A stretch of 64,000 nt of DNA from an uncultured Candidatus Saccharibacteria bacterium (GCA_964512925.1 CAZEKH010000003.1:16772-80771), one strand, 5' to 3'. Positions 2,561-45,638 are shown, counted from the first letter of the stretch. Notes: generated by a model not told the origin, from the letters alone. Program-made: numbers and translations.

Positions 2561-4636
<2,076 letters not shown>

Positions 4637-4727: not shown

Positions 4728-5858
4728 CTATCTTAGTTCAGCATTGTATACTCTTTTAGTTTCTTCATAAAGCTTGTTATGCAGAGGCTCTACTTCTTCG
4801 ACTTTTAGCGTCCGTTCTCTGCTCCTATATACCACCCTATATGTGTAGCTCATACGGTCTTTACCGAATTTAGCATCATTTTCAAATTTGTCCAGCAGGG
4901 TTACTTCTTCTACCAAATCGCCGCCAATTTCCCGAATCAGATCAAAATAATCGTTAGGAGTAAAAGTTTTCTCAACAATGAATGAAATATCCCTAATTAC
5001 AGGCGGGTATTTACTGACCTCTACAAATTTATGTCCGAGCACGAGCTGCTTTTTGACCCTTTCGTCATCGGACCACAGGAGCCTGATATCTGGAAGTGAC
5101 ATAGAAGCAATTGCCAAACGTTCAAGTCCAAAACCAAAAGCCCAGCCATGGTAACCTTCTAGGTCGAAATTAGAAAGCACGCTCTTTCTAGCCATACCGC
5201 AGCCAAGCATTTCAATCCACTGCCCGTTTATTTCCGCTTCCATCTCAAAAGAAGGGTCAGTATAAGGAAAATTGTGGTCGTAAAATCTAAAATTTATGTC
5301 GCCAAAAATGCTTTTTGCGATCTCACTTAAAGTATTTTTCAAATCTTCGGGTGTGATATTCGCGCTATTGTCCGGTCCTAAGTAAAGTCCGCCGAATTGA
5401 TGGAAAACATTCATATGCCTGCTGTCAACTTCGTCTTTCCTATAAACTTTTCCATAACAAACAGCGCCCACAGTTTCTTTGTTCTGGATTCTTTTTTTAA
5501 CTTCCGGATCATTTAGATAGTAATACCAAAAAACCGTGTCGTGGGTTCTAAGCAAATTTTTTTCGTCTACATAATAAGTGTCAGACTTGCTCCTCGCCGG
5601 ATGTCCTTCCGGCATATTGAAAAGGTCAAATAGAATTTCAGACGGTATAATCTCAGGAATTTCTATAACGTCAAAACCCTGCAAGCTTTTGACGTTCATA
5701 GCTCTTTTTACGATTTCAAAAAGCGGGCTCTCAGGACTGCGCGATAAGTCCGGCATATCCAAATACCGCCTGATGCGCATAGCTTCAAAATCTTTTCTAT
5801 TTTCCAGCTCCTTTTTTAACTTCTCTTCTTTAGAACGATCAATATTGATATGAGACAT
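4728..5858 (-). CDS. pheS: Phenylalanyl-tRNA synthetase alpha subunit with a fused C-terminal FDX-ACB anticodon-binding domain (mitochondrial-type single-chain architecture)
   Basis: 376 aa; class II core (FNMPEGHPARS.., HMNVFHQFGGLY, FGFGLERLAIAS) followed by ~110 aa matching the FDX-ACB fold (SKYPPVIRDISFIV...EEVTLLDKFEND..KDRMSYTYRVVYRSRERTLKVEEVEP), which in bacteria normally sits at the C-terminus of PheT. Confidence 0.88.
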   Translation of the reverse strand: MSHINIDRSKEEKLKKELENRKDFEAMRIRRYLDMPDLSRSPESPLFEIVKRAMNVKSLQGFDVIEIPEIIPSEILFDLFNMPEGHPARSKSDTYYVDEKNLLRTHDTVFWYYYLNDPEVKKRIQNKETVGAVCYGKVYRKDEVDSRHMNVFHQFGGLYLGPDNSANITPEDLKNTLSEIAKSIFGDINFRFYDHNFPYTDPSFEMEAEINGQWIEMLGCGMARKSVLSNFDLEGYHGWAFGFGLERLAIASMSLPDIRLLWSDDERVKKQLVLGHKFVEVSKYPPVIRDISFIVEKTFTPNDYFDLIREIGGDLVEEVTLLDKFENDAKFGKDRMSYTYRVVYRSRERTLKVEEVEPLHNKLYEETKRVYNAELR

Positions 5859-5957
5859 GATACTGATTTACTTATTTTAATACTAATGATACTTACTATA
5901 CGGATTTAAAATATCAGTATTATTCGTATCATCCGTACTAATTCGTATATTTGTATC

Positions 5958-6383
5958 TTATAATATCATGTTATGTTTAAACTGGCTACCAAGTTTTGAG
6001 TCGGGTTTTAAAAGCAAAATTCCCGGTTCAGCCTCTTTGGAAAGTCCGAGTTCAAAAGCGGCGCAGATCATCCCCTGGCTTTCAATACCCCGGATTTTAG
6101 CTTTTTCCAGGGTAAATGGTTCATGTGTTTCGGAGTGGATGTTTTGCGCGATCTTCGCGCCAGGTAAAGCCAGGGCAACTATGTCATTTTCTTTAAAGTT
6201 AAAGGCGCCACAAACTACTGGGTAGACTTCCCTGTCCCCCAGGCTCAATCTGATTATTCTCAATCTATCGGCATTAGGGTGTTTTTCTATGCCGGTGACT
6301 TTAGCCGCAAAAATCCCAGGAAAGGTTTGTGAATTTGTATTGTTCGCAGAAAAAAGAGAAAAGATTTGTTTAATTATATTCAT
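5958..6383 (-). CDS. Standalone tRNA-binding (tRNA_bind/Trbp111/CsaA-like) domain protein, possibly a minimal PheT remnant
   Basis: 141 aa; KVTGIEKHPNADRLRIIRLSLGD..VVCGAFNF..KIRGIESQGMICAAFELGL matches the OB-fold tRNA-binding domain found at the PheT N-terminus, MetG C-terminus and CsaA; immediately upstream of pheS in the same operon. Confidence 0.8.
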   Translation of the reverse strand: MNIIKQIFSLFSANNTNSQTFPGIFAAKVTGIEKHPNADRLRIIRLSLGDREVYPVVCGAFNFKENDIVALALPGAKIAQNIHSETHEPFTLEKAKIRGIESQGMICAAFELGLSKEAEPGILLLKPDSKLGSQFKHNMIL

Positions 6384-6424: not shown

Positions 6425-7918
6425 TCAATACTCTGTGCATTCTTCTTGGTTACACATATAACCGGTGGTGCCGGATTTGGGGTTGTCAAAAAAGGATTTT
6501 AAGGTAAAAGTATCAAATTTTTCCCCGGCTTTGTATTCGTATTCCTTTTGAGTTTTGGGATCCTTGGGCAAAGCTGAGATAAAATCCGGAACCAAAGCAG
6601 ACTGTAGTTTTCCGGTTTGCGGAAAAACAAAATCGGAAGCGCTACTGGAAGGTAAATTTTTCGCCGAGTATATGAGTAACGCAGATCTCAAAGTTTCCAA
6701 ATCCGTTCTTCTAAGATTGTCGAAAATGTCCCCTTCTTCCTGAATTTTGTCTTTTTGAGCGTCCGCAAAATGTTTTTTTATCGCTTGACTGACGCTTTCG
6801 CTGAAGAAACTTAATGTGTAATCCTTGCCGTCTTCGCTGATGTTGTATGAATAAACAAAAACTCCTTGGTTTATCGGATCTTGCGGATTGGTTGCGGTTT
6901 TTACGTATGGCTTGATCTGGGTATACATTTCTTTAAAGTCCGATGTTTTGGGAAAGGATTTGTTGTCTTCATAGAAACGAACCAGTGCTATCCCAACGGT
7001 TTTTATAACAGAGCTTCTTTGGGCGTCTCTATCTTGCTTTGACTCAACAGAGTCATCAAATCCTTCGGGAGTCGAGGTAGCGGTTTTTTTCGGCACTATG
7101 GGATATTTTGGGTCGCTAAATTCATATGTGGTCAGTAAAACATCCCCAAGGCTGTCTTGGGTCGGGCTATGGAGTCCAAACTCCTTAATTTTCCCTTTAA
7201 TTACAGATAGTTCTGCAGTGGTATATTTTTTGTCTGTAACGAGGCTGAAACTGAACAGGGTTGAATCCTTGTCCGAATATTTTGGGTTTTTAGCCGTGTG
7301 GGAGTCTAGGGGGTTTCCTGAGAAAACATTAACTTCATCGCCGTCGCTTAGTCCGTCTTTGTCTGAGTCGGGGTTATTTGGGTCAGTGGACTTTTTATAT
7401 TCTTCTAAATTAGTCAGACCGTCAAAGTCCGGATCCGCCCCATCCCCGCATAACTCTGGGTTTTTGCATAACTCGTCATTGAAATATTTTAATTGCCATT
7501 CTTTTGCAATTGCTGTTAAGGGAGTCCCAGAAGCCGTCTCTGCCGTGTTTTTTACTTTTGAATTTTGATTGAGCGGAGTGTTTAGGGTATTTTCAGATAA
7601 AAGATTTTCCGTTTCTGAGTTCGAGCCGATTTTTTGGGAAATCCACCAAACCAACGGGCTAAGTATTAAAAGTGCTATGACCAAAGCTATGTATACTTTG
7701 TAAGGTTTGAGTAAAGCCATAAATTTTTGAAAACGCGACATTTCTGCCGGGGATTGAGAAACATCACTGAGTTTTGAAGCCTCTAAATTTTTAAGACCCG
7801 AGGGGTTTTGGGGCGAAGAAGAATTGTACTTTGGCATAACATTGAAAAAAAGCGGGCCTGACGCTTGGGCGGAGGGTTCGTTTTCCGGGGGGGTTGTTGG
7901 TGTTGTTTTTTCAAACAT
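6425..7918 (-). CDS. Membrane-anchored secreted protein with thrombospondin type-3-like Ca-binding repeats
   Basis: 497 aa; one TM helix (YKVYIALVIALLILSPLVWWI) and repeated DxDxDG motifs (DGADPDFDGLTNLEEY..DPNNPDSDKDGLSDGDEVN..SDKD). Confidence 0.6.
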   Translation of the reverse strand: MFEKTTPTTPPENEPSAQASGPLFFNVMPKYNSSSPQNPSGLKNLEASKLSDVSQSPAEMSRFQKFMALLKPYKVYIALVIALLILSPLVWWISQKIGSNSETENLLSENTLNTPLNQNSKVKNTAETASGTPLTAIAKEWQLKYFNDELCKNPELCGDGADPDFDGLTNLEEYKKSTDPNNPDSDKDGLSDGDEVNVFSGNPLDSHTAKNPKYSDKDSTLFSFSLVTDKKYTTAELSVIKGKIKEFGLHSPTQDSLGDVLLTTYEFSDPKYPIVPKKTATSTPEGFDDSVESKQDRDAQRSSVIKTVGIALVRFYEDNKSFPKTSDFKEMYTQIKPYVKTATNPQDPINQGVFVYSYNISEDGKDYTLSFFSESVSQAIKKHFADAQKDKIQEEGDIFDNLRRTDLETLRSALLIYSAKNLPSSSASDFVFPQTGKLQSALVPDFISALPKDPKTQKEYEYKAGEKFDTFTLKSFFDNPKSGTTGYMCNQEECTEY

Positions 7919-7928
7919 AATTTTTGTT

Positions 7929-8306
7929 TTAAATTTTTAAACTGAGAAAAATTTCCAAACATACCGCCAGAGCTATCAGGCTTAAAGCCACCCACCAATA
8001 TAAGAGTCCTTGAGAAGATAAAAACAGCAGACTTACAAACAGGAGCGAAATGAAAAAAGATTGTCTTAAACCCGCAAAAAAGTGTTTTGAAAACACCCCT
8101 TCAAAATAGCGTTGCCTGACCATTATTTGAACTATCAGGCATAAGCCTAAAATTGCCAAAAAAATACTAAAGTATAGGCCAAAAAAAATTCCTTTTGAAG
8201 ACTTTTCCGGATCCGTAAAAGAAAGTATTGAGAACGCTGAAAAGATCGACAGTATTGTACTGATTGCGAGTAAGAATAGATTCTTTTTTGCAGACTGAAG
8301 TATCAT
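7929..8306 (-). CDS. Small integral membrane protein, hypothetical
   Basis: 125 aa with 3-4 predicted hydrophobic helices; no family recognised. Confidence 0.4.
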   Translation of the reverse strand: MILQSAKKNLFLLAISTILSIFSAFSILSFTDPEKSSKGIFFGLYFSIFLAILGLCLIVQIMVRQRYFEGVFSKHFFAGLRQSFFISLLFVSLLFLSSQGLLYWWVALSLIALAVCLEIFLSLKI

Positions 8307-15575: not shown

Positions 15576-15879
15576 TGGTTGCGGGACCCGGACTCGAACC
15601 GGGAATCTCAAGGTTATGCATACCACTACAATTTTCATTGCTTTGCTTGGCAAATTTGTGGTCTGGACTTTATCTTCACCATAGCTTTTTGCTTTAGGTG
15701 TCTGCCATTAAGTCTCTACGCCTTTCCCAAAAATATTTTGGGACTTGGTTCGGGATTACCATTTTACAGGCTTCCCCGAATTTGACAGAATTCACGGCTA
15801 AATTTCTTATGCCGCAGCCCATTGCGAGATTAAAATCTCTAACTCGAGCCTTGCGAGATGCCAATTTCTCTATCCCGCG
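15576..15879 (-). tRNA. Initiator tRNA-fMet (anticodon CAT) interrupted by a 228-nt group I intron between positions 33 and 34
   Basis: 5' exon (minus, 15879-15847) CGCGGGATAGAGAAATTGGCATCTCGCAAGGCT; 3' exon (15618-15576) CATAACCTTGAGATTCCCGGTTCGAGTCCGGGTCCCGCAACCA. The spliced product has a perfect cloverleaf with a C1xA72 mismatch and an A11:U24 pair (bacterial initiator determinants), anticodon loop CUCAUAA, T-loop TTCGAGT and CCA. Confidence 0.8.
15619..15846 (-). ncRNA. Group I self-splicing intron in the tRNA-fMet anticodon loop
   Basis: Intron follows exon U33 and ends in a terminal G (..GUGGUAUG). Recognisable conserved elements in canonical order: P-like AAUUCGGGGAAGCC, Q-like AAUCCCGAAC, R-like GUAGAGACUUAA, S-like AAGAUAAAGUCC; P7 pairing GACUU/AAGUC. 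No ORF inside. Confidence 0.7.
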
Positions 15880-16117
15880 ATACAGCAATTTTTAGGTATT
15901 GCCTACCTGCGCCAGTCTTAAAATATTTTTCCCTGATCTTAGCTTCTTTTAAAGTTTTAAATTCTTCAAAATAAACCAATTTCCAAGGACCTTTATTTCT
16001 AGTGTAGGAAGGAAAATCAATATTAGTATTATGTTGTTCCAGTCGTTTTATAACATTAGAGGATACCCCTTTGTATAGTAAACCTTGTGGATTTTGAATT
16101 ACATAAGCAGTAAACAT
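15839..16117 (-). CDS. Small GIY-YIG nuclease superfamily protein (YhbQ/UPF0213-like), read-through C-terminus overlaps the tRNA-fMet 5' exon
   Basis: 92 aa; AYVIQNPQGLLYKGVSSNVIKRLEQHN...WKLVYFEEF..EAKIREKYFKTGAGRQYL matches the GIY-YIG catalytic core; the last ~13 codons lie over tRNA-fMet positions 1-33. Confidence 0.72.
   Translation of the reverse strand: MFTAYVIQNPQGLLYKGVSSNVIKRLEQHNTNIDFPSYTRNKGPWKLVYFEEFKTLKEAKIREKYFKTGAGRQYLKIAVSRDREIGISQGSS
15855..15882. repeat. 28-bp direct repeat copy 1 (tRNA-fMet positions 1-25 plus 3 nt of 5' flank)
   Basis: gagatgccaatttctctatcccgcgata; identical copy at 16148-16175 on the other side of the GIY-YIG gene. Confidence 0.8.
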
Positions 16118-16175: not shown

Positions 16176-16221
16176 TTTTTCTCACCTCAATAATTATACA
16201 GTATTATTAATTTTTTTGCAA

Positions 16222-16256
16222 CATAAAACCACTTCAGTTTTGGAAGTGGTTTTATG
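16222..16256. other. Long perfect hairpin (14-bp stem)
   Basis: cataaaaccacttcagttttggaagtggttttatg; T-run precedes rather than follows the stem, so not a canonical terminator. Confidence 0.4.
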
Positions 16257-16290
16257 TTCTCGCGTATAGCGGGAAAGTGCAAAGCGAAGC

Positions 16291-16365
16291 TTAGCGCTTC
16301 TTTTTCTTGGCGCCGCCTTTTTTCTTGGCGACTTTCTTCTTTGCAGTTTTTTTCTTGGTAGCCAT
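16291..16365 (-). CDS. Possible 24-aa lysine-rich peptide MATKKKTAKKKVAKKKGGAKKKKR
   Basis: ATG preceded by AGGGAGA (spacing ~12 nt) and an in-frame upstream stop; 14 of 24 residues Lys. Below the ORF-track size cutoff. In an AT-rich genome it could be spurious. Confidence 0.25.
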   Translation of the reverse strand: MATKKKTAKKKVAKKKGGAKKKKR

Positions 16366-16523
16366 TTTGGGCTAGTCTCCCTGGAGTCTTAACTGAATTT
16401 TGGCTAAGCTCCATTAATTTTCTACAGCTCGGATATAAATTCCGAAGGAGTAGCTGATTTAGATTTTTCTTTTGCTCTGATTTATTTTCGTTTCTGTAAA
16501 GAAATATTATATTGCAGCTTTCT

Positions 16524-17252
16524 TTATATATTGTAAGAACTTTTGAAATGTTTGTCAAGCAAATTTTTGTCAACCAAAATATTTTTTAACAATAATTTAT
16601 TTTTTTTTGATTTTAGTTTTTCAATTTCCTCTGCTATTTTATTTTTACTAATATATTTTTGTAACAAATCAAAACTATTTTTTATTTGTAAAAATGCCGT
16701 AGGATCTAAATTTAAACCCAGTTCCAAACTCAACCTTAGAGCCCTAAGCATCCGTAAAGGGTCTTGCAATATCCTATTTTTTGGATTTCCTACAAACTTA
16801 ATTGTTTTATTTTTTATATCTTTAACCCCGCCGTAAAAGTCCAGAATTTTTTGGTTTTTTGGGCTGAAATATAAGGAATTTATAGTAAAATCCCGCCGGC
16901 TTGAATCTGTTTTTGCGGATGTAACGAATTTTATTTGAGGAAACCTACTGCCTGTATAGGTTTCCGATCTAAATGTGGCAATTGCGGCTGTAAGTTTTTC
17001 AGATAGAGCCACTATTACCCCGAAATTTTTATAACCTGAATTAAAATTAATAAAATATTTTTTCAAAATAAAAGCAACCTCTTCCGGGGTTGCGGATGTA
17101 GCTATATCAATGTCCTTTGCGGTTTTTAAAAGAAGAAAATCCCTGGTTGTGCCACCGACAAAGTAGGTCTCAGGAAAGTTTTCCACAAGCGCCGAATAAA
17201 TATTGAAGCCGAATTTTTCCAGTTTTGTTTTTGGTTTGAAAGAAAATTTCAT
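16524..17252 (-). CDS. Minimal tRNA nucleotidyltransferase (CCA-adding enzyme family, head/neck domains only)
   Basis: 242 aa; Pol-beta NTase motifs GGTTRDFLL..DIDIAT, RRDFTINSLY, DPLRMLRALRL. Much shorter than the ~400-aa bacterial CCA enzymes. Confidence 0.78.
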   Translation of the reverse strand: MKFSFKPKTKLEKFGFNIYSALVENFPETYFVGGTTRDFLLLKTAKDIDIATSATPEEVAFILKKYFINFNSGYKNFGVIVALSEKLTAAIATFRSETYTGSRFPQIKFVTSAKTDSSRRDFTINSLYFSPKNQKILDFYGGVKDIKNKTIKFVGNPKNRILQDPLRMLRALRLSLELGLNLDPTAFLQIKNSFDLLQKYISKNKIAEEIEKLKSKKNKLLLKNILVDKNLLDKHFKSSYNI

Positions 17253-17830: not shown

Positions 17831-18220
17831 CTACAAATTTACAAGCCTTTTAAATTTAACACCTGAATTTGTAAAATTTGCTAAAATACCAAGCTTGATT
17901 TTAGAAGCTTTTAAATAATCGTTAACTTGTTTGATATTTTTTAAACCAAAATTTTCGTTCTTTTTTATCTCAAGTATTATTTGAGCTCCAGCAATTTGTA
18001 TCAGGAAATCTAAATAGTATATACCAATGTATTTTTCTTCATAGTATATTTTTATTGGAACTTGTTCTTTGAACTCAACACCTGCATTTTTCAAACCGAC
18101 TGCAACAGCTTTTTGGTAATGCTTTTCAAGCAAATTTCCTCCAAGTTCCTTATAGACATTATACAAAATGCCAACTATTCTGTAACATTCATCTTTATAA
18201 ACTAAATCCACTTTATTCAT
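17831..18220 (-). CDS. GxxExxY family protein inserted between atpD and atpC
   Basis: 129 aa; YRIVGILYNVYKELGGNLLEKHYQKAVAVGLKNAGVEF matches the invariant GxxExxY motif and the length (~125 aa) of that family. Confidence 0.7.
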   Translation of the reverse strand: MNKVDLVYKDECYRIVGILYNVYKELGGNLLEKHYQKAVAVGLKNAGVEFKEQVPIKIYYEEKYIGIYYLDFLIQIAGAQIILEIKKNENFGLKNIKQVNDYLKASKIKLGILANFTNSGVKFKRLVNL

Positions 18221-25593: not shown

Positions 25594-25642
25594 TGGAGCC
25601 GACGATCGGAGTTGAACCGATAACCTATGGTTTACGATACCA
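25594..25642 (-). pseudogene. Diverged partial copy of the tRNA-Thr 3' half (CCA, acceptor, T-arm, anticodon stem-loop)
   Basis: tggagccgacgatcggagttgaaccgataacctatggtttacgatacc parallels the genuine 3' half tggagccgaaagtgggacttgaacccacaacctgcggtttacgatacc. Confidence 0.55.
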
Positions 25643-25672
25643 TTGCTCCCCGCCTGCCTATCGCCTGGAGCC
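25641..25672. repeat. 32-bp direct repeat A (copy 2), overlapping the 3' end of tRNA-Thr
   Basis: ccattgctccccgcctgcctatcgcctggagc. Confidence 0.7.
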
Positions 25673-25742
25673 GAAAGTGGGACTTGAACCCACAACCTGC
25701 GGTTTACGATACCGCTGCTCTACCAATTGAGCTATTTCGGCG
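25667..25742 (-). tRNA. tRNA-Thr (anticodon CGT), CCA encoded
   Basis: Minus strand GCCGAAATAGCTCAATTGGTAGAGCAGCGGTATCGTAAACCGCAGGTTGTGGGTTCAAGTCCCACTTTCGGCTCCA; perfect 7-bp acceptor, D-stem GCTC/GAGC, anticodon stem GCGGT/ACCGC, loop AUCGUAA, T-loop TTCAAGT. Confidence 0.9.
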
Positions 25743-43883: not shown

Positions 43884-45638
43884 TTAAAACTTGCGGCTTT
43901 CTCCTGGCTTTAGAACAATTTGAGGGGTTTTTTGTTTTTCGGCAGGCACGGATTTTTCCGTGGTTTCAAAATCATCGCTAGCAATTTTATCCGGTTCGGA
44001 AATTTTTTGTTTTTGCAATTTTAACACTGATTCCCAAATTGGGTGCTGGGGTTTTTTTTGATGTTCGTTTTTGGTTTGGTTTGGCTTTTTATGTCGATCA
44101 TTTCGCTCGTTCTTTGACCATTTATTTTCACTTGATTCTTTTTTCGGGAGGTTTTTCGAATTATTGATGAAATTGCGCGTATCACTCAAAACTGGCTTGT
44201 TTAAAGCAGTTTTCACCAAAGTGTTTTCACTTTCCGGTTTTTTAACAATAACTTCAGAATCCAAATATTTGCCATTGTCAGTTGTTTCTGGTTCTAATTC
44301 GGAATCTTGAGACATTATATTTGCGCTATCTTGGTGAAATTCCGCGCCCATCCATTTGGAAATTTTCTCTTCAACTAAAGAAACTGAGTTACTGTACCTT
44401 TCTCTGGAAACTTTTATGACTTTTTCCGCATTACCCGTAAAATAGTCGGGGCTAGCGGGTATGGTGATGGCTGAAAAAGGTTCGCTGGCAACTCCGTTAA
44501 TCATTAATTTTAAAATTATATTGTATTTAGGCAGGTTTACCATATCGTTCGGGGTAAAAATCGGATCAAATTCAGTTTCAAGGTATTCCGCATCAGCCGC
44601 GCCGATTCTAAACAGAACTATGGTTCCCACGTTGCCGAAAATCGCATCCCTGACTTTAGTGCTTTTTTCCTGCTCCAGCTGGGCAATATACTGGTGGCCT
44701 ACGATCAAATTAAGCCTGTATTTTCTCGCCTCGCTCAATATTGTGGCAAAACTTTCCGTGGCAAAATTTTGAAACTCGTCTACATATAAATAAAAATCTT
44801 TTCTGTCTTCCTCGGCTATATCCGTCCTGGACATCGCAGCTAGTTGCAGTTTAGTTACAATCATAGCGCCAAGCAAGGCGCTGTTGTCTTCACCGACTTT
44901 TCCTTTGGATAAATCCATTATCAAAATTTTGCGGTTATCCATTATATCCCTCAAATCTATGGTGCTCTTGGGCTGACCTACGATGTTTCTAACAATTCCG
45001 GAAGATAAAAATTGTCCGACTTTATTTTGGATAGGCGCAATGGCTTCGGTGCGGTACTTTTCGTTATAATTGGCAAATTCATCTGTCCAAAAGGCGCGCA
45101 CCATCGGGTCTTTGATGTTGTCAACGATTTTTTTCCGATACTTTTTGTCGACATACATCCTGGTAATACCGAGCAAAGTGTTGCCAGGACTTTCCAGCAA
45201 GGCCAAGATTGTATTGTTTAAAATATATTCCATTCTGGCTGACCAGACATTTGACCAAATTTTGGTAAATACGCCCATAAGTCCGGAAGCGACTAAATGT
45301 TTGTATTTTGTATCCACAGCTTCCAAAATGTTGAAGGCTATCGGGTAATCCAAGTCAGCAGGGTTAAAATACACCACATCGTTAATCCTAGATGGAGGCA
45401 CAGAGTTTAAAATTCTTTGGATGGAATCCCCGTGCGGGTCTAAAAAAGCGATTCCGTGACCGTTGCGAATATCTTGAATAGCCATACTTTCCATCATTGA
45501 GGTTTTTCCCATCCCAGTTTTACCGATCAAGTACATATGACGTCTGCGGTCATCGGCTTTGATGCCAAAAGGCACTTCTTTGTTTCGGAAGTTGGTTTTA
45601 GCAAAAATAGTTATGGGTTCTTTTTTGGTTTCGTTCAT
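43884..45638 (-). CDS. VirD4/TraD/TraG-like (type IV coupling-protein-like) P-loop ATPase lacking its own TM segment; Lys/Glu-rich low-complexity C-terminal tail
   Basis: 584 aa; Walker A LIGKTGMGKTS, FLDPHGDS, Walker B FYLYVDEFQNF, then ARKYRLNLIVGHQYIAQL resembling the TraG-D_C/TrwB C-terminal region; last ~150 aa low complexity. Confidence 0.65.
   Translation of the reverse strand: MNETKKEPITIFAKTNFRNKEVPFGIKADDRRRHMYLIGKTGMGKTSMMESMAIQDIRNGHGIAFLDPHGDSIQRILNSVPPSRINDVVYFNPADLDYPIAFNILEAVDTKYKHLVASGLMGVFTKIWSNVWSARMEYILNNTILALLESPGNTLLGITRMYVDKKYRKKIVDNIKDPMVRAFWTDEFANYNEKYRTEAIAPIQNKVGQFLSSGIVRNIVGQPKSTIDLRDIMDNRKILIMDLSKGKVGEDNSALLGAMIVTKLQLAAMSRTDIAEEDRKDFYLYVDEFQNFATESFATILSEARKYRLNLIVGHQYIAQLEQEKSTKVRDAIFGNVGTIVLFRIGAADAEYLETEFDPIFTPNDMVNLPKYNIILKLMINGVASEPFSAITIPASPDYFTGNAEKVIKVSRERYSNSVSLVEEKISKWMGAEFHQDSANIMSQDSELEPETTDNGKYLDSEVIVKKPESENTLVKTALNKPVLSDTRNFINNSKNLPKKESSENKWSKNERNDRHKKPNQTKNEHQKKPQHPIWESVLKLQKQKISEPDKIASDDFETTEKSVPAEKQKTPQIVLKPGESRKF

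What the first reader, a model, noticed from the sequence alone, without database searches (positions are those of the whole stretch)
4728..6383. Mitochondrial-style PheRS: pheS carries the FDX-ACB anticodon-binding domain and the only PheT-like gene nearby is a 141-aa standalone tRNA-binding domain
Bacterial PheRS is normally an (alpha-beta)2 enzyme with a ~800-aa PheT that ends in the FDX-ACB domain. Here the FDX-ACB domain (KYPPVIRDISFIV...TLLDKFEND...YTYRVVYRS..TLKVEEV) is fused to the C-terminus of the catalytic alpha subunit, the architecture of monomeric mitochondrial PheRS. The adjacent upstream gene encodes only an OB-fold tRNA_bind domain (the PheT N-terminal module). If no full pheT exists in the genome, this is a minimised, probably monomeric bacterial PheRS with a trans-acting tRNA-binding helper. 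That is an uncommon and evolutionarily informative arrangement, since it would lack the PheT editing domain.
Basis: partly seen in the sequence, partly recalled or inferred. Interest (0 to 1): 0.7.

Follow-up and report, generated by a model that had tools for sequence, protein, structure and literature searches.

The report
Single-chain, mitochondrial-type PheRS in Patescibacteria

Summary
ORF 4728-5858(-) is a PheS catalytic core joined to a complete FDX-ACB anticodon-binding domain. ORF 5958-6383(-) is a free-standing copy of the PheT B2 (tRNA_bind) domain.

The arrangement is not rare. It is the standard PheRS gene of a large part of Patescibacteria: thousands of protein clusters and at least 178 species genomes.

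By sequence and by predicted fold, the closest solved structure is human mitochondrial PheRS. In a core-only tree all fused enzymes form one clade (100% bootstrap). It splits into a bacterial branch and a branch of organellar, huge-phage and giant-virus enzymes.

The window's subfamily lacks the otherwise universal Glu/Asp that binds the amino group of Phe (Gly156) and has Asp107 instead. A sister subfamily keeps the usual pattern and occupies the identical genomic slot in close relatives, so the two appear interchangeable.

In three low-GC contigs the same slot upstream of gyrB holds an ordinary pheS-pheT pair. No PheT editing or B5 domain was found in the window or in about 1.8 Mb around fused genes elsewhere. 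Genome-wide absence of pheT could not be tested.

The 141-aa gene is a neighbour only in a Doudnabacteria-like subset, so it is at most an optional helper.

The parts
4728..5858 (-). Gene for the single-chain PheRS (376 aa plus stop): PheS-type class II core fused to FDX-ACB. This is the 'type G' subfamily.
   Evidence: Pfam and NCBIfam matches. More than 6000 homologues, and the top 120 all carry both domains. AF2 model with pLDDT 83.7. Best fold match is 3cmq.
5730..5858 (-). Residues 1-43: a short N-terminal helical stub in place of the about 90-aa coiled-coil of bacterial PheS.
   Evidence: No Phe_tRNA-synt_N match, whereas the unfused PheS of L177 has one. The model shows helices at 9-19 and 24-34.
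5046..5729 (-). Residues 44-271: the catalytic core. Conserved: Arg140 (motif 2), His153, Gln154, Ala240 and Arg247 (motif 3). Subfamily signature: Asp107 (HDT), Gly156 (FHQxG) and Tyr199 (FPYT).
   Evidence: Alignment with canonical, organellar and viral PheRS. The signature is present in about 200 of 200 sequences of this subfamily.
5016..5045 (-). Residues 272-281: the hinge or linker between the core and the anticodon-binding domain.
   Evidence: The only segment with pLDDT below 50 is 274-281. The flanking sequence 'PDIRLLWS.D.R' is shared with human mitochondrial PheRS.
4731..5015 (-). Residues 282-376: the FDX-ACB (B8-type) anticodon-binding domain.
   Evidence: Pfam match 1-94/94. It is 42% identical to organellar FDX-ACB domains and 26% identical to E. 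coli PheT B8.
5859..5957 (-). 99-bp AT-rich spacer between the two genes.
   Evidence: No terminator-like site. Only weak promoter-like matches, at the level expected by chance.
5958..6383 (-). Gene for a 141-aa free-standing PheT-B2-like OB-fold (tRNA_bind, residues 27-133).
   Evidence: A family of about 1400 proteins of 123-173 aa. It lies immediately upstream of the fused PheRS in 23 of 80 genomes. It is also found upstream of type D enzymes.
2561..4603 (-). gyrB, the conserved downstream neighbour that defines the genomic slot.
   Evidence: Pfam. It is adjacent in 71 of 80 genome loci. In the metagenome sample it is adjacent to 22 type G and 27 type D loci. pheS-pheT lies before gyrB in L177, L195 and L247.

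Best explanation
The 376-aa protein is the cell's housekeeping phenylalanyl-tRNA synthetase, and it works as a single chain without a beta subunit, as mitochondrial PheRS does. The class II core (residues 44-271) forms Phe-AMP and transfers Phe to A76 of tRNA-Phe. The C-terminal FDX-ACB domain (282-376) swings on a flexible hinge (272-281) and reads the GAA anticodon. With no B3/4 domain there is no hydrolysis of Tyr-tRNA-Phe, so accuracy depends on the synthetic site alone.

In this subfamily the carboxylate that normally holds the alpha-amino group of Phe has been lost at position 156 (Gly). It appears to have been replaced by Asp107 on a neighbouring element.

The fused gene stands where a pheS-pheT pair stands in three low-GC contigs. 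The simplest origin is therefore a deletion that joined pheS to the last domain of pheT.

The 141-aa B2-like protein is a lineage-restricted accessory that probably binds tRNA in trans. It is not an obligatory subunit.

Shown here: the architecture, the distribution, the relationships and the synteny. Inferred: monomeric activity, Phe specificity, loss of pheT from the whole genome, the role of Asp107 and the role of the B2 protein.
For: Architecture and fold.

Single origin of all fused enzymes, from the catalytic core alone with 11 unfused PheS as outgroups: 100% bootstrap.

Constraint: identity to the window's enzyme stays at 69-79% while the neighbouring GyrB falls to 53%; medians 71% and 56%.

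Catalytic residues and the specificity residue Ala240 are conserved.

Asp covaries between positions 156 and 107: G+HDT against D+HTT.

Type D and type G occupy the identical slot uvrD-orf125-orf497-B2-PheRS-gyrB-greA in genomes whose GyrB is 82% identical. Both types lie next to gyrB across the radiation. This argues for one interchangeable PheRS per genome.

PheT search: 97 metagenome loci with a fused gene have no PheT, while 16 loci with an unfused PheS are all followed directly by PheT. This also shows that PheT is easily detected. A PheT HMM found no B3/4, B5 or B6/7 in 1.06 Mb.

In L177, L195 and L247 the order is pheS, pheT (without B2), gyrB, which is the same slot.
Against: The window covers 64 kb of a 146.6-kb contig.

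Gly156 removes a residue that is Glu or Asp in all 104 other PheRS sequences compared, so altered substrate handling cannot be excluded.

The protein scores below the curated cut-offs of TIGR00469 (217 against 258), TIGR00468 (161 against 237) and SrmL (212 against 300).

NCBI curates a related 'PheS-related mystery ligase', which shows that fused PheS-like proteins with unknown roles exist.

Mukai et al. 2017 (PMC5370408) report that many CPR bacteria do have a PheRS beta subunit.

The taxonomic identity of L177, L195 and L247 is inferred from low GC content and the B2-less PheT. It is not shown.
Confidence: 0.72

Rival explanations
1. The fused protein is an accessory PheS-like ligase, comparable to NCBI's 'mystery ligase' SrmL or to the fused gene in an Oligoflexia MAG. 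On this view an ordinary pheS-pheT pair elsewhere in the genome does the housekeeping job.
For: SrmL (NF051887) matches almost the full length at 212 bits. A fused homologue occurs in an Oligoflexia MAG, from a group expected to carry ordinary PheST. Gly156 removes a canonical substrate-binding residue. Whole genomes were not examined.
Against: The protein scores below the SrmL cut-off of 300, as do all 20 relatives tested. It is near-universal, occupies a fixed slot, and is more conserved than GyrB. That slot holds pheS-pheT in three low-GC contigs. Type D, which has the canonical Asp, is interchangeable with type G at the same locus. No second PheS-like ORF and no PheT were found in about 1.8 Mb around fused genes. 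Genomes of 0.6-1.2 Mb rarely keep spare synthetases (inference).
Confidence: 0.12
2. The fused chain is not self-sufficient. It needs a partner: either the 141-aa B2 protein as an obligatory subunit, or a reduced beta-like protein encoded elsewhere.
For: The B2 gene is tightly linked, on the same strand 99 bp upstream, in the window and in 23 of 80 genomes, and it accompanies both type G and type D. Alpha subunits of canonical PheRS are inactive alone (established knowledge).
Against: 57 of 80 genomes have no B2 gene within 6 kb. Human mitochondrial PheRS, the closest structure, is active as a monomer (established knowledge; PMC3275996). The B2 domain is dispensable for aminoacylation in E. 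coli (Roy and Ibba 2006, as cited in PMC5370408). No beta-like core (tRNA_synthFbeta or B5) was found near any fused gene.
Confidence: 0.12
3. The open reading frame is an assembly chimera, or a decaying pheS-pheT remnant with no function.
For: None beyond the fact that the source is a metagenome-assembled genome.
Against: The same intact architecture, at 365-400 aa, occurs in thousands of independent assemblies with about 80% mean column identity.
Confidence: 0.01

Closest known systems
Mitochondrial/organellar single-chain PheRS (human FARS2, PDB 3CMQ/3TUP; yeast Msf1; TIGR00469; 'PheRS-M' of AARS Online)
   Same: One chain made of a PheS-type core, a hinge and an FDX-ACB domain. There is no coiled-coil, no beta subunit and no editing domain. 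About 50% identity over residues 168-371, including the linker. It is the best fold match. The two share a single origin in the core-only tree.
   Different: The host is a bacterium. The protein is shorter (376 aa) and lacks the insertion after motif 2. It falls in a separate bacterial clade (96.5% bootstrap), sister to the organellar and viral clade (99%). It scores below the TIGR00469 cut-off. It has Gly156/Asp107 in place of the canonical Glu. In some lineages a B2-like gene lies upstream.
Canonical bacterial (alpha-beta)2 PheRS (PheS TIGR00468 plus PheT TIGR00472), including the B2-less PheT of some CPR bacteria (Mukai et al. 2017, PMC5370408)
   Same: The same catalytic core and the same motifs (35% identity to E. 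coli PheS). The same type of anticodon-binding domain. The same genomic slot before gyrB as pheS-pheT in L177, L195 and L247.
   Different: No Phe_tRNA-synt_N, B1, B3/4, B5 or B6/7 domains. FDX-ACB is on the alpha chain. No pheT follows the gene.
SrmL, 'PheS-related mystery ligase' (NCBIfam NF051887)
   Same: Full-length similarity at 212 bits. The match spans model positions 21-345 of 349 and query residues 50-366, so SrmL apparently has the same two-domain build.
   Different: The score is below the curated cut-off of 300. No member of SrmL proper was recovered among the relatives tested. No literature on SrmL was found.
Free-standing PheT-B2/EMAP-like tRNA-binding proteins (YtpR NF045760, TapR NF045867, Trbp111/CsaA/YgjH)
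   Same: The 141-aa protein is a lone OB-fold of the tRNA_bind family encoded beside a synthetase gene, as TapR is beside tyrS.
   Different: It scores below the cut-offs of YtpR (80 against 100) and TapR (44 against 120), and only 21 bits on the YgjH-type model. It is closest to the B2 domain of PheT itself.
Single-chain PheRS of huge phages and giant viruses
   Same: The same two-domain chain at 337-360 aa. These sequences pass the TIGR00469 cut-off.
   Different: They group with the eukaryotic organellar clade, not with the Patescibacteria clade. They keep the canonical Glu/Asp and the FPF motif.

Membership tests
Mitochondrial-type single-chain PheRS (TIGR00469 / PheRS-M) | PheS-type class II core with motifs 2 and 3 and the Phe-pocket Ala | tested here: met
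   tRNA-synt_2d at E 4e-52. Arg140, His153, Gln154, Ala240 and Arg247 are conserved.
Mitochondrial-type single-chain PheRS (TIGR00469 / PheRS-M) | FDX-ACB domain on the same chain, C-terminal, joined by a hinge | tested here: met
   PF03147 matched 1-94/94. The low-pLDDT hinge is 274-281. The alignment with 3cmq runs contiguously through the linker.
Mitochondrial-type single-chain PheRS (TIGR00469 / PheRS-M) | Score at or above the curated cut-off of the family model | tested here: not met
   217.1 bits against a cut-off of 258.35. The sister-subfamily (type D) representative P0241 and the viral forms do pass it.
Mitochondrial-type single-chain PheRS (TIGR00469 / PheRS-M) | Falls inside the organellar clade | tested here: not met
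   It belongs to a bacterial clade (96.5% bootstrap) that is sister to the eukaryotic-plus-viral clade (99%). All fused enzymes together form one clade (100%).
Mitochondrial-type single-chain PheRS (TIGR00469 / PheRS-M) | Active as a monomer without a beta subunit; no editing | not testable with these tools
   There is no editing domain in the chain or nearby. Activity and oligomeric state need biochemistry.
Canonical bacterial PheS (TIGR00468) | Curated cut-off, N-terminal coiled-coil, and pheT immediately downstream | tested here: not met
   161.5 bits against 237.45. No PF02912 match. The downstream gene is gyrB. Unfused PheS in the control loci meet all three criteria.
SrmL PheS-related ligase (NF051887) | Curated cut-off of 300 bits | tested here: not met
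   212.4 bits.
PheT / PheRS beta subunit (TIGR00472), tested on the 141-aa protein | B3/4, B5, beta core and B8 domains; cut-off 402 bits | tested here: not met
   Only model positions 40-152 (the B2 domain) are matched, at 104 bits.
tRNA_bind OB-fold (PF01588), tested on the 141-aa protein | Pfam gathering score | tested here: met
   60.7 bits against 27.
CsaA/YgjH/Trbp111-type tRNA-binding proteins, tested on the 141-aa protein | Best match to those models or structures | tested here: not met
   PRK10089 scores 21 bits against a cut-off of 150. No CsaA or Trbp111 chain appears among the PDB hits at E <= 1e-3; the top hits are PheT B2 domains.

The most novel reading that the evidence does not exclude
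Single-chain PheRS was not invented in eukaryotes. On this reading it arose once in bacteria, by deletion of pheT up to its last domain. The three low-GC contigs, probably Patescibacteria, that still carry pheS-pheT before gyrB would preserve the ancestral state. The enzymes of mitochondria, plastids, huge phages and giant viruses would then descend from that same fusion. A whole bacterial radiation would live without PheRS proofreading and would exchange two active-site versions of the enzyme (Asp156 or Asp107) at one locus.
Probability: 0.35. Interest if true: 0.75.

Novelty: new variant of a known kind. Interest (0 to 1): 0.6.

Why it matters
Reviews and databases describe three forms of PheRS and place the monomeric form only in organelles (PMC3275996, PMC11580382, PMC4494062). 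Here the same form is the ordinary enzyme of a very large bacterial group, and it also occurs in huge phages and giant viruses.

This bears on three questions.
- Where mitochondrial PheRS came from.
- How cells tolerate the lack of Tyr-tRNA-Phe editing.
- How genomes are annotated. NCBI names these proteins 'hypothetical protein' and IMG names the 141-aa protein 'PheRS beta chain'. Both the pheS and pheT models are then missed or mis-scored, which affects marker-based completeness estimates.

The swap of the amino-group-binding carboxylate between positions 156 and 107 is a small, testable case of active-site rewiring in an essential enzyme.

Tried and rejected
- Source contig. The exact fused protein (P0001) was not on record. 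The B2 protein was found only on 2-3 kb Logan contigs. The contig could therefore not be extended beyond the window.
- Literature. Searches for PheRS with Patescibacteria, CPR or Parcubacteria, and for SrmL, PheRS-M, FDX-ACB and monomeric PheRS, found no description of a bacterial single-chain PheRS. One search failed on syntax.
- P0386 was followed as a possible unfused PheS from a CPR bacterium. Its contig is only 1.5 kb at 48% GC, and its partial downstream PheT N-terminus looked Clostridia-like by eye, so it was used only as an outgroup.
- IMG/VR scans with the window protein and with P0257 alone found nothing, because the patterns were exact 8-mers. An alignment query did work.
- Type D first looked like a co-resident paralogue, because most large type D contigs place it before cca. 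This was rejected after L149 and L219 showed type D in the window's exact slot, and after both types were found next to gyrB.
- The metagenome pattern scan was meant to reveal contigs that carry two fused genes. None did, but the scan stopped at 120 rows, so this has little weight.
- A sister relationship between the low-GC unfused PheS and the fused clade was tested and not supported (42.5% bootstrap).

Full report
**What is there.** The window is low-GC (about 39%) with nearly all genes on the minus strand. ORF 4728-5858(-) encodes 376 aa. Residues 44-271 match the PheS class II core (tRNA-synt_2d, E 4e-52). Residues 282-376 match the whole FDX-ACB model (1-94/94, E 3.8e-22). There is no Phe_tRNA-synt_N coiled-coil. 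ORF 5958-6383(-), 99 bp upstream on the same strand, encodes 141 aa with a tRNA_bind OB-fold. Its best NCBIfam match is positions 40-152 of pheT_bact, the B2 domain, at 104 bits. YtpR scores 80 bits, TapR 44 and the YgjH-type model 21. Its best solved relatives are the B2 domains of four PheT structures, and no CsaA or Trbp111 chain is hit.

**How common it is.** The protein search returned more than 6000 hits. The top 120 are all 365-400 aa, all carry both domains and are 72-79% identical to the query. Named sources include Doudna-, Giovannoni- and Yanofskybacteria and Paceibacterota. NCBI calls them 'hypothetical protein' and IMG calls them 'PheRS alpha chain'. A scan of one genome per species found at least 178 genomes with a relative. 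In the best 80, every record with an informative title but one is Patescibacteria; the exception (L045) is titled Verrucomicrobiia. The arrangement is therefore the norm of a large radiation and not an oddity. Only one PheS-like ORF occurs per locus. The enzyme is unusually constrained: its identity to the window's protein stays at 69-79% while the adjacent GyrB falls from 87% to 53% (medians 71% and 56%).

**Relation to known PheRS.**
- Against the PDB, human mitochondrial PheRS is the best hit (208 bits). Residues 168-371 are about 50% identical in one contiguous alignment through motif 3, the linker and FDX-ACB. E. coli PheS scores 114 bits.
- The AF2 model (pLDDT 83.7, with the only disordered stretch at the hinge, 274-281) is most similar to 3cmq (E 1e-31 over 386 columns).
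- The core alone is only slightly closer to organellar enzymes than to E. coli PheS (152 against 126 bits). The FDX-ACB domain is much closer to them (42% against 26% identity).
- In the library of 50% representatives, most of the top 150 relatives, and about 70% of those complete enough to judge (73 of 103), carry both domains; most others are fragments or lack a recognisable FDX-ACB.
- A neighbour-joining tree of the catalytic core only (214 columns, 11 unfused PheS as outgroups, 200 bootstraps) gave these supports: all fused enzymes 100%; a bacterial clade 96.5%; a clade of eukaryotic organellar plus viral enzymes 99% (earlier version).
- The bacterial clade contains the Patescibacteria sequences, an Oligoflexia MAG, and a group whose loci do not translate with table 11.
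- The eukaryotic members were identified by name as locust, choanoflagellate, fungi, Euglena, amphioxus and fern.
- The 337-360-aa members lie on contigs of 160-540 kb with phage hallmarks and on giant-virus MAGs.
- The fusion thus appears to have one origin. Neither branch is nested in the other in this sample.

**A changed active site, and two interchangeable versions.**
- The window's subfamily ('type G') has Gly156. All 104 other sequences in that alignment (unfused outgroups, organellar, viral and other bacterial fused forms) have Glu or Asp there.
- From established knowledge, this position is Glu-alpha-220 of the T. thermophilus enzyme, a ligand of the alpha-amino group of Phe.
- Type G also has HDT instead of HTS/HTT (Asp107), and FPYT instead of FPFT. 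These residues are present in about 200 of 200 sequences of the subfamily.
- A sister subfamily ('type D'; 53-65% identical, median 57%; also from Paceibacterota, Minisyncoccia, Lipton- and Yanofskybacteria) has Asp156 with Thr107. The acidic residue therefore covaries between the two positions. I read this as a relocation of the carboxylate. This is an inference, because the model coordinates could not be inspected.
- The two types are not co-resident paralogues as far as can be seen. Metagenome contigs L149 and L219 have the window's exact gene order (uvrD-like, orf125, orf497, B2, PheRS, gyrB, greA) and a GyrB 82% identical to the window's, yet they carry type D enzymes only 60-62% identical.
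- In a sample of 120 metagenome stretches, 22 type G and 27 type D genes lie next to gyrB.

**Is there a PheT?**
- In the window, and in 80 genome loci of about 13 kb each, E. coli PheT matches only the B2-like proteins and the FDX-ACB ends of the fused genes.
- A DNA-pattern scan of metagenome contigs for the shared motif GWAFGFGL[DE]RLA returned 120 stretches (745 kb). This set supplied a control. All 16 loci with an unfused PheS have PheT directly downstream (E down to 1e-144). None of 97 loci with a fused gene has one.
- A PheT HMM built from E. coli PheT plus ten of these sequences found only B2 (26 hits) and B8 (86 hits) in 1.06 Mb around fused genes. It found nothing for B3/4, B5 or the beta core.
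- In three low-GC contigs (L177, L195, L247) the order is pheS, pheT, gyrB on one strand. This is the slot the fused gene occupies here. For L177 and L195, Pfam confirms that pheT has B3_4, B5, beta core and FDX-ACB but no B2; for L177 it also confirms that PheS has its coiled-coil. For L247 the same PheT extent is inferred from its alignment to E. coli PheT.
- This B2-less PheT is the architecture Mukai et al. report for CPR bacteria (PMC5370408).
- Together these results favour in-situ replacement of pheS-pheT by one fused gene.
- Two limits remain. No whole genome could be searched, and the taxonomy of those three contigs is inferred.

**The 141-aa protein.** It belongs to a family of about 1400 proteins of 123-173 aa. 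It lies directly upstream of the fused gene in 23 of 80 genomes, mostly Doudnabacteria-like. In the metagenome sample it accompanies both type G and type D. The other 57 genomes have no copy within 6 kb. B2 is dispensable for aminoacylation in E. coli and contributes to tRNA binding and editing (Roy and Ibba 2006, cited in PMC5370408). CPR bacteria also fuse B2 to TyrRS and LysRS. I therefore regard it as a mobile tRNA-binding module that may raise tRNA affinity in trans, and not as a subunit.

**Mechanism proposed.** A single chain activates Phe and charges tRNA-Phe. The FDX-ACB domain rotates on the hinge to reach the anticodon, as in the closed (3CMQ) and open (3TUP) states of the human enzyme (established knowledge). 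There is no post-transfer editing.

**Rivals.** Three alternatives are considered: an accessory ligase alongside an undetected PheST; an obligatory partner; and an artefact. I rate them at 0.12, 0.12 and 0.01.

**Novelty.** No paper in the searchable library describes a bacterial single-chain PheRS. Reviews and phylogenies treat the monomeric type as organellar. I class this as a new variant of a known kind.

Noticed in passing
window 15590-15890 (-): A group I intron (Rfam RF00028, 64 bits, 15648-15867) appears to interrupt a tRNA. The flanks read as a 5' half, GCGGGATAGAG...GCAAGGCT, and a 3' half, CATAACCTTGAG...GGTTCGAGTCCGGGTCCCGCAACCA. This looks like a tRNA with a CAU anticodon. ARAGORN did not call it.
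   Followed up: partly
window 25594-25741 (-): Two abutting tRNA-Thr(CGU) calls overlap by 3 nt. One is strong (72 bits) and one weak (32 bits). This may be a decayed tandem copy.
   Followed up: no
L089, L090, L091-L133: Single-chain PheRS of 337-360 aa that passes the mitochondrial model's cut-off is encoded on huge-phage-like contigs (160-540 kb) and on giant-virus MAGs. 43 IMG/VR contigs carry it. These sequences group with eukaryotic organellar PheRS.
   Followed up: partly
L086, L087: The fused PheRS P0251 (456 aa) lies on contigs whose gene does not translate to the protein with table 11. This suggests a recoded lineage (code 25 or 4, Gracilibacteria- or Absconditabacteria-like) that also uses the single-chain enzyme.
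   Followed up: no
L084: An Oligoflexia MAG (GCA_019694465.1) encodes a 414-aa fused PheS+FDX-ACB annotated as hypothetical. Its best NCBIfam match is SrmL, below the cut-off. It may be an accessory copy in a non-CPR bacterium.
   Followed up: no
window 16187-17252 (-): The CCA-adding-type nucleotidyltransferase (PolyA_pol head) is split into two overlapping ORFs of 242 and 128 aa, against 485 aa in relatives. This could be a frameshift, an assembly error or a genuinely split gene.
   Followed up: no
window 17831-18220 (-): A PD-(D/E)XK_3 nuclease-family ORF lies inside the F-type ATP synthase operon, between the beta and epsilon subunit genes.
   Followed up: no
window 4728-5858 and L001-L080: Identity of the fused PheRS is almost flat (69-79%) across genomes whose GyrB ranges from 87% to 53%. 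Close relatives can carry either type G or type D in the same slot. This suggests gene replacement by transfer within the radiation.
   Followed up: partly
window 43884-45638 (-): A TrwB/VirD4-like coupling-protein ATPase lies among the cell-envelope genes.
   Followed up: no
window 6425-8306 (-): A 497-aa protein and a 125-aa membrane-like protein, neither with a Pfam match, are conserved upstream of the B2 gene in the Doudnabacteria-like clade.
   Followed up: no
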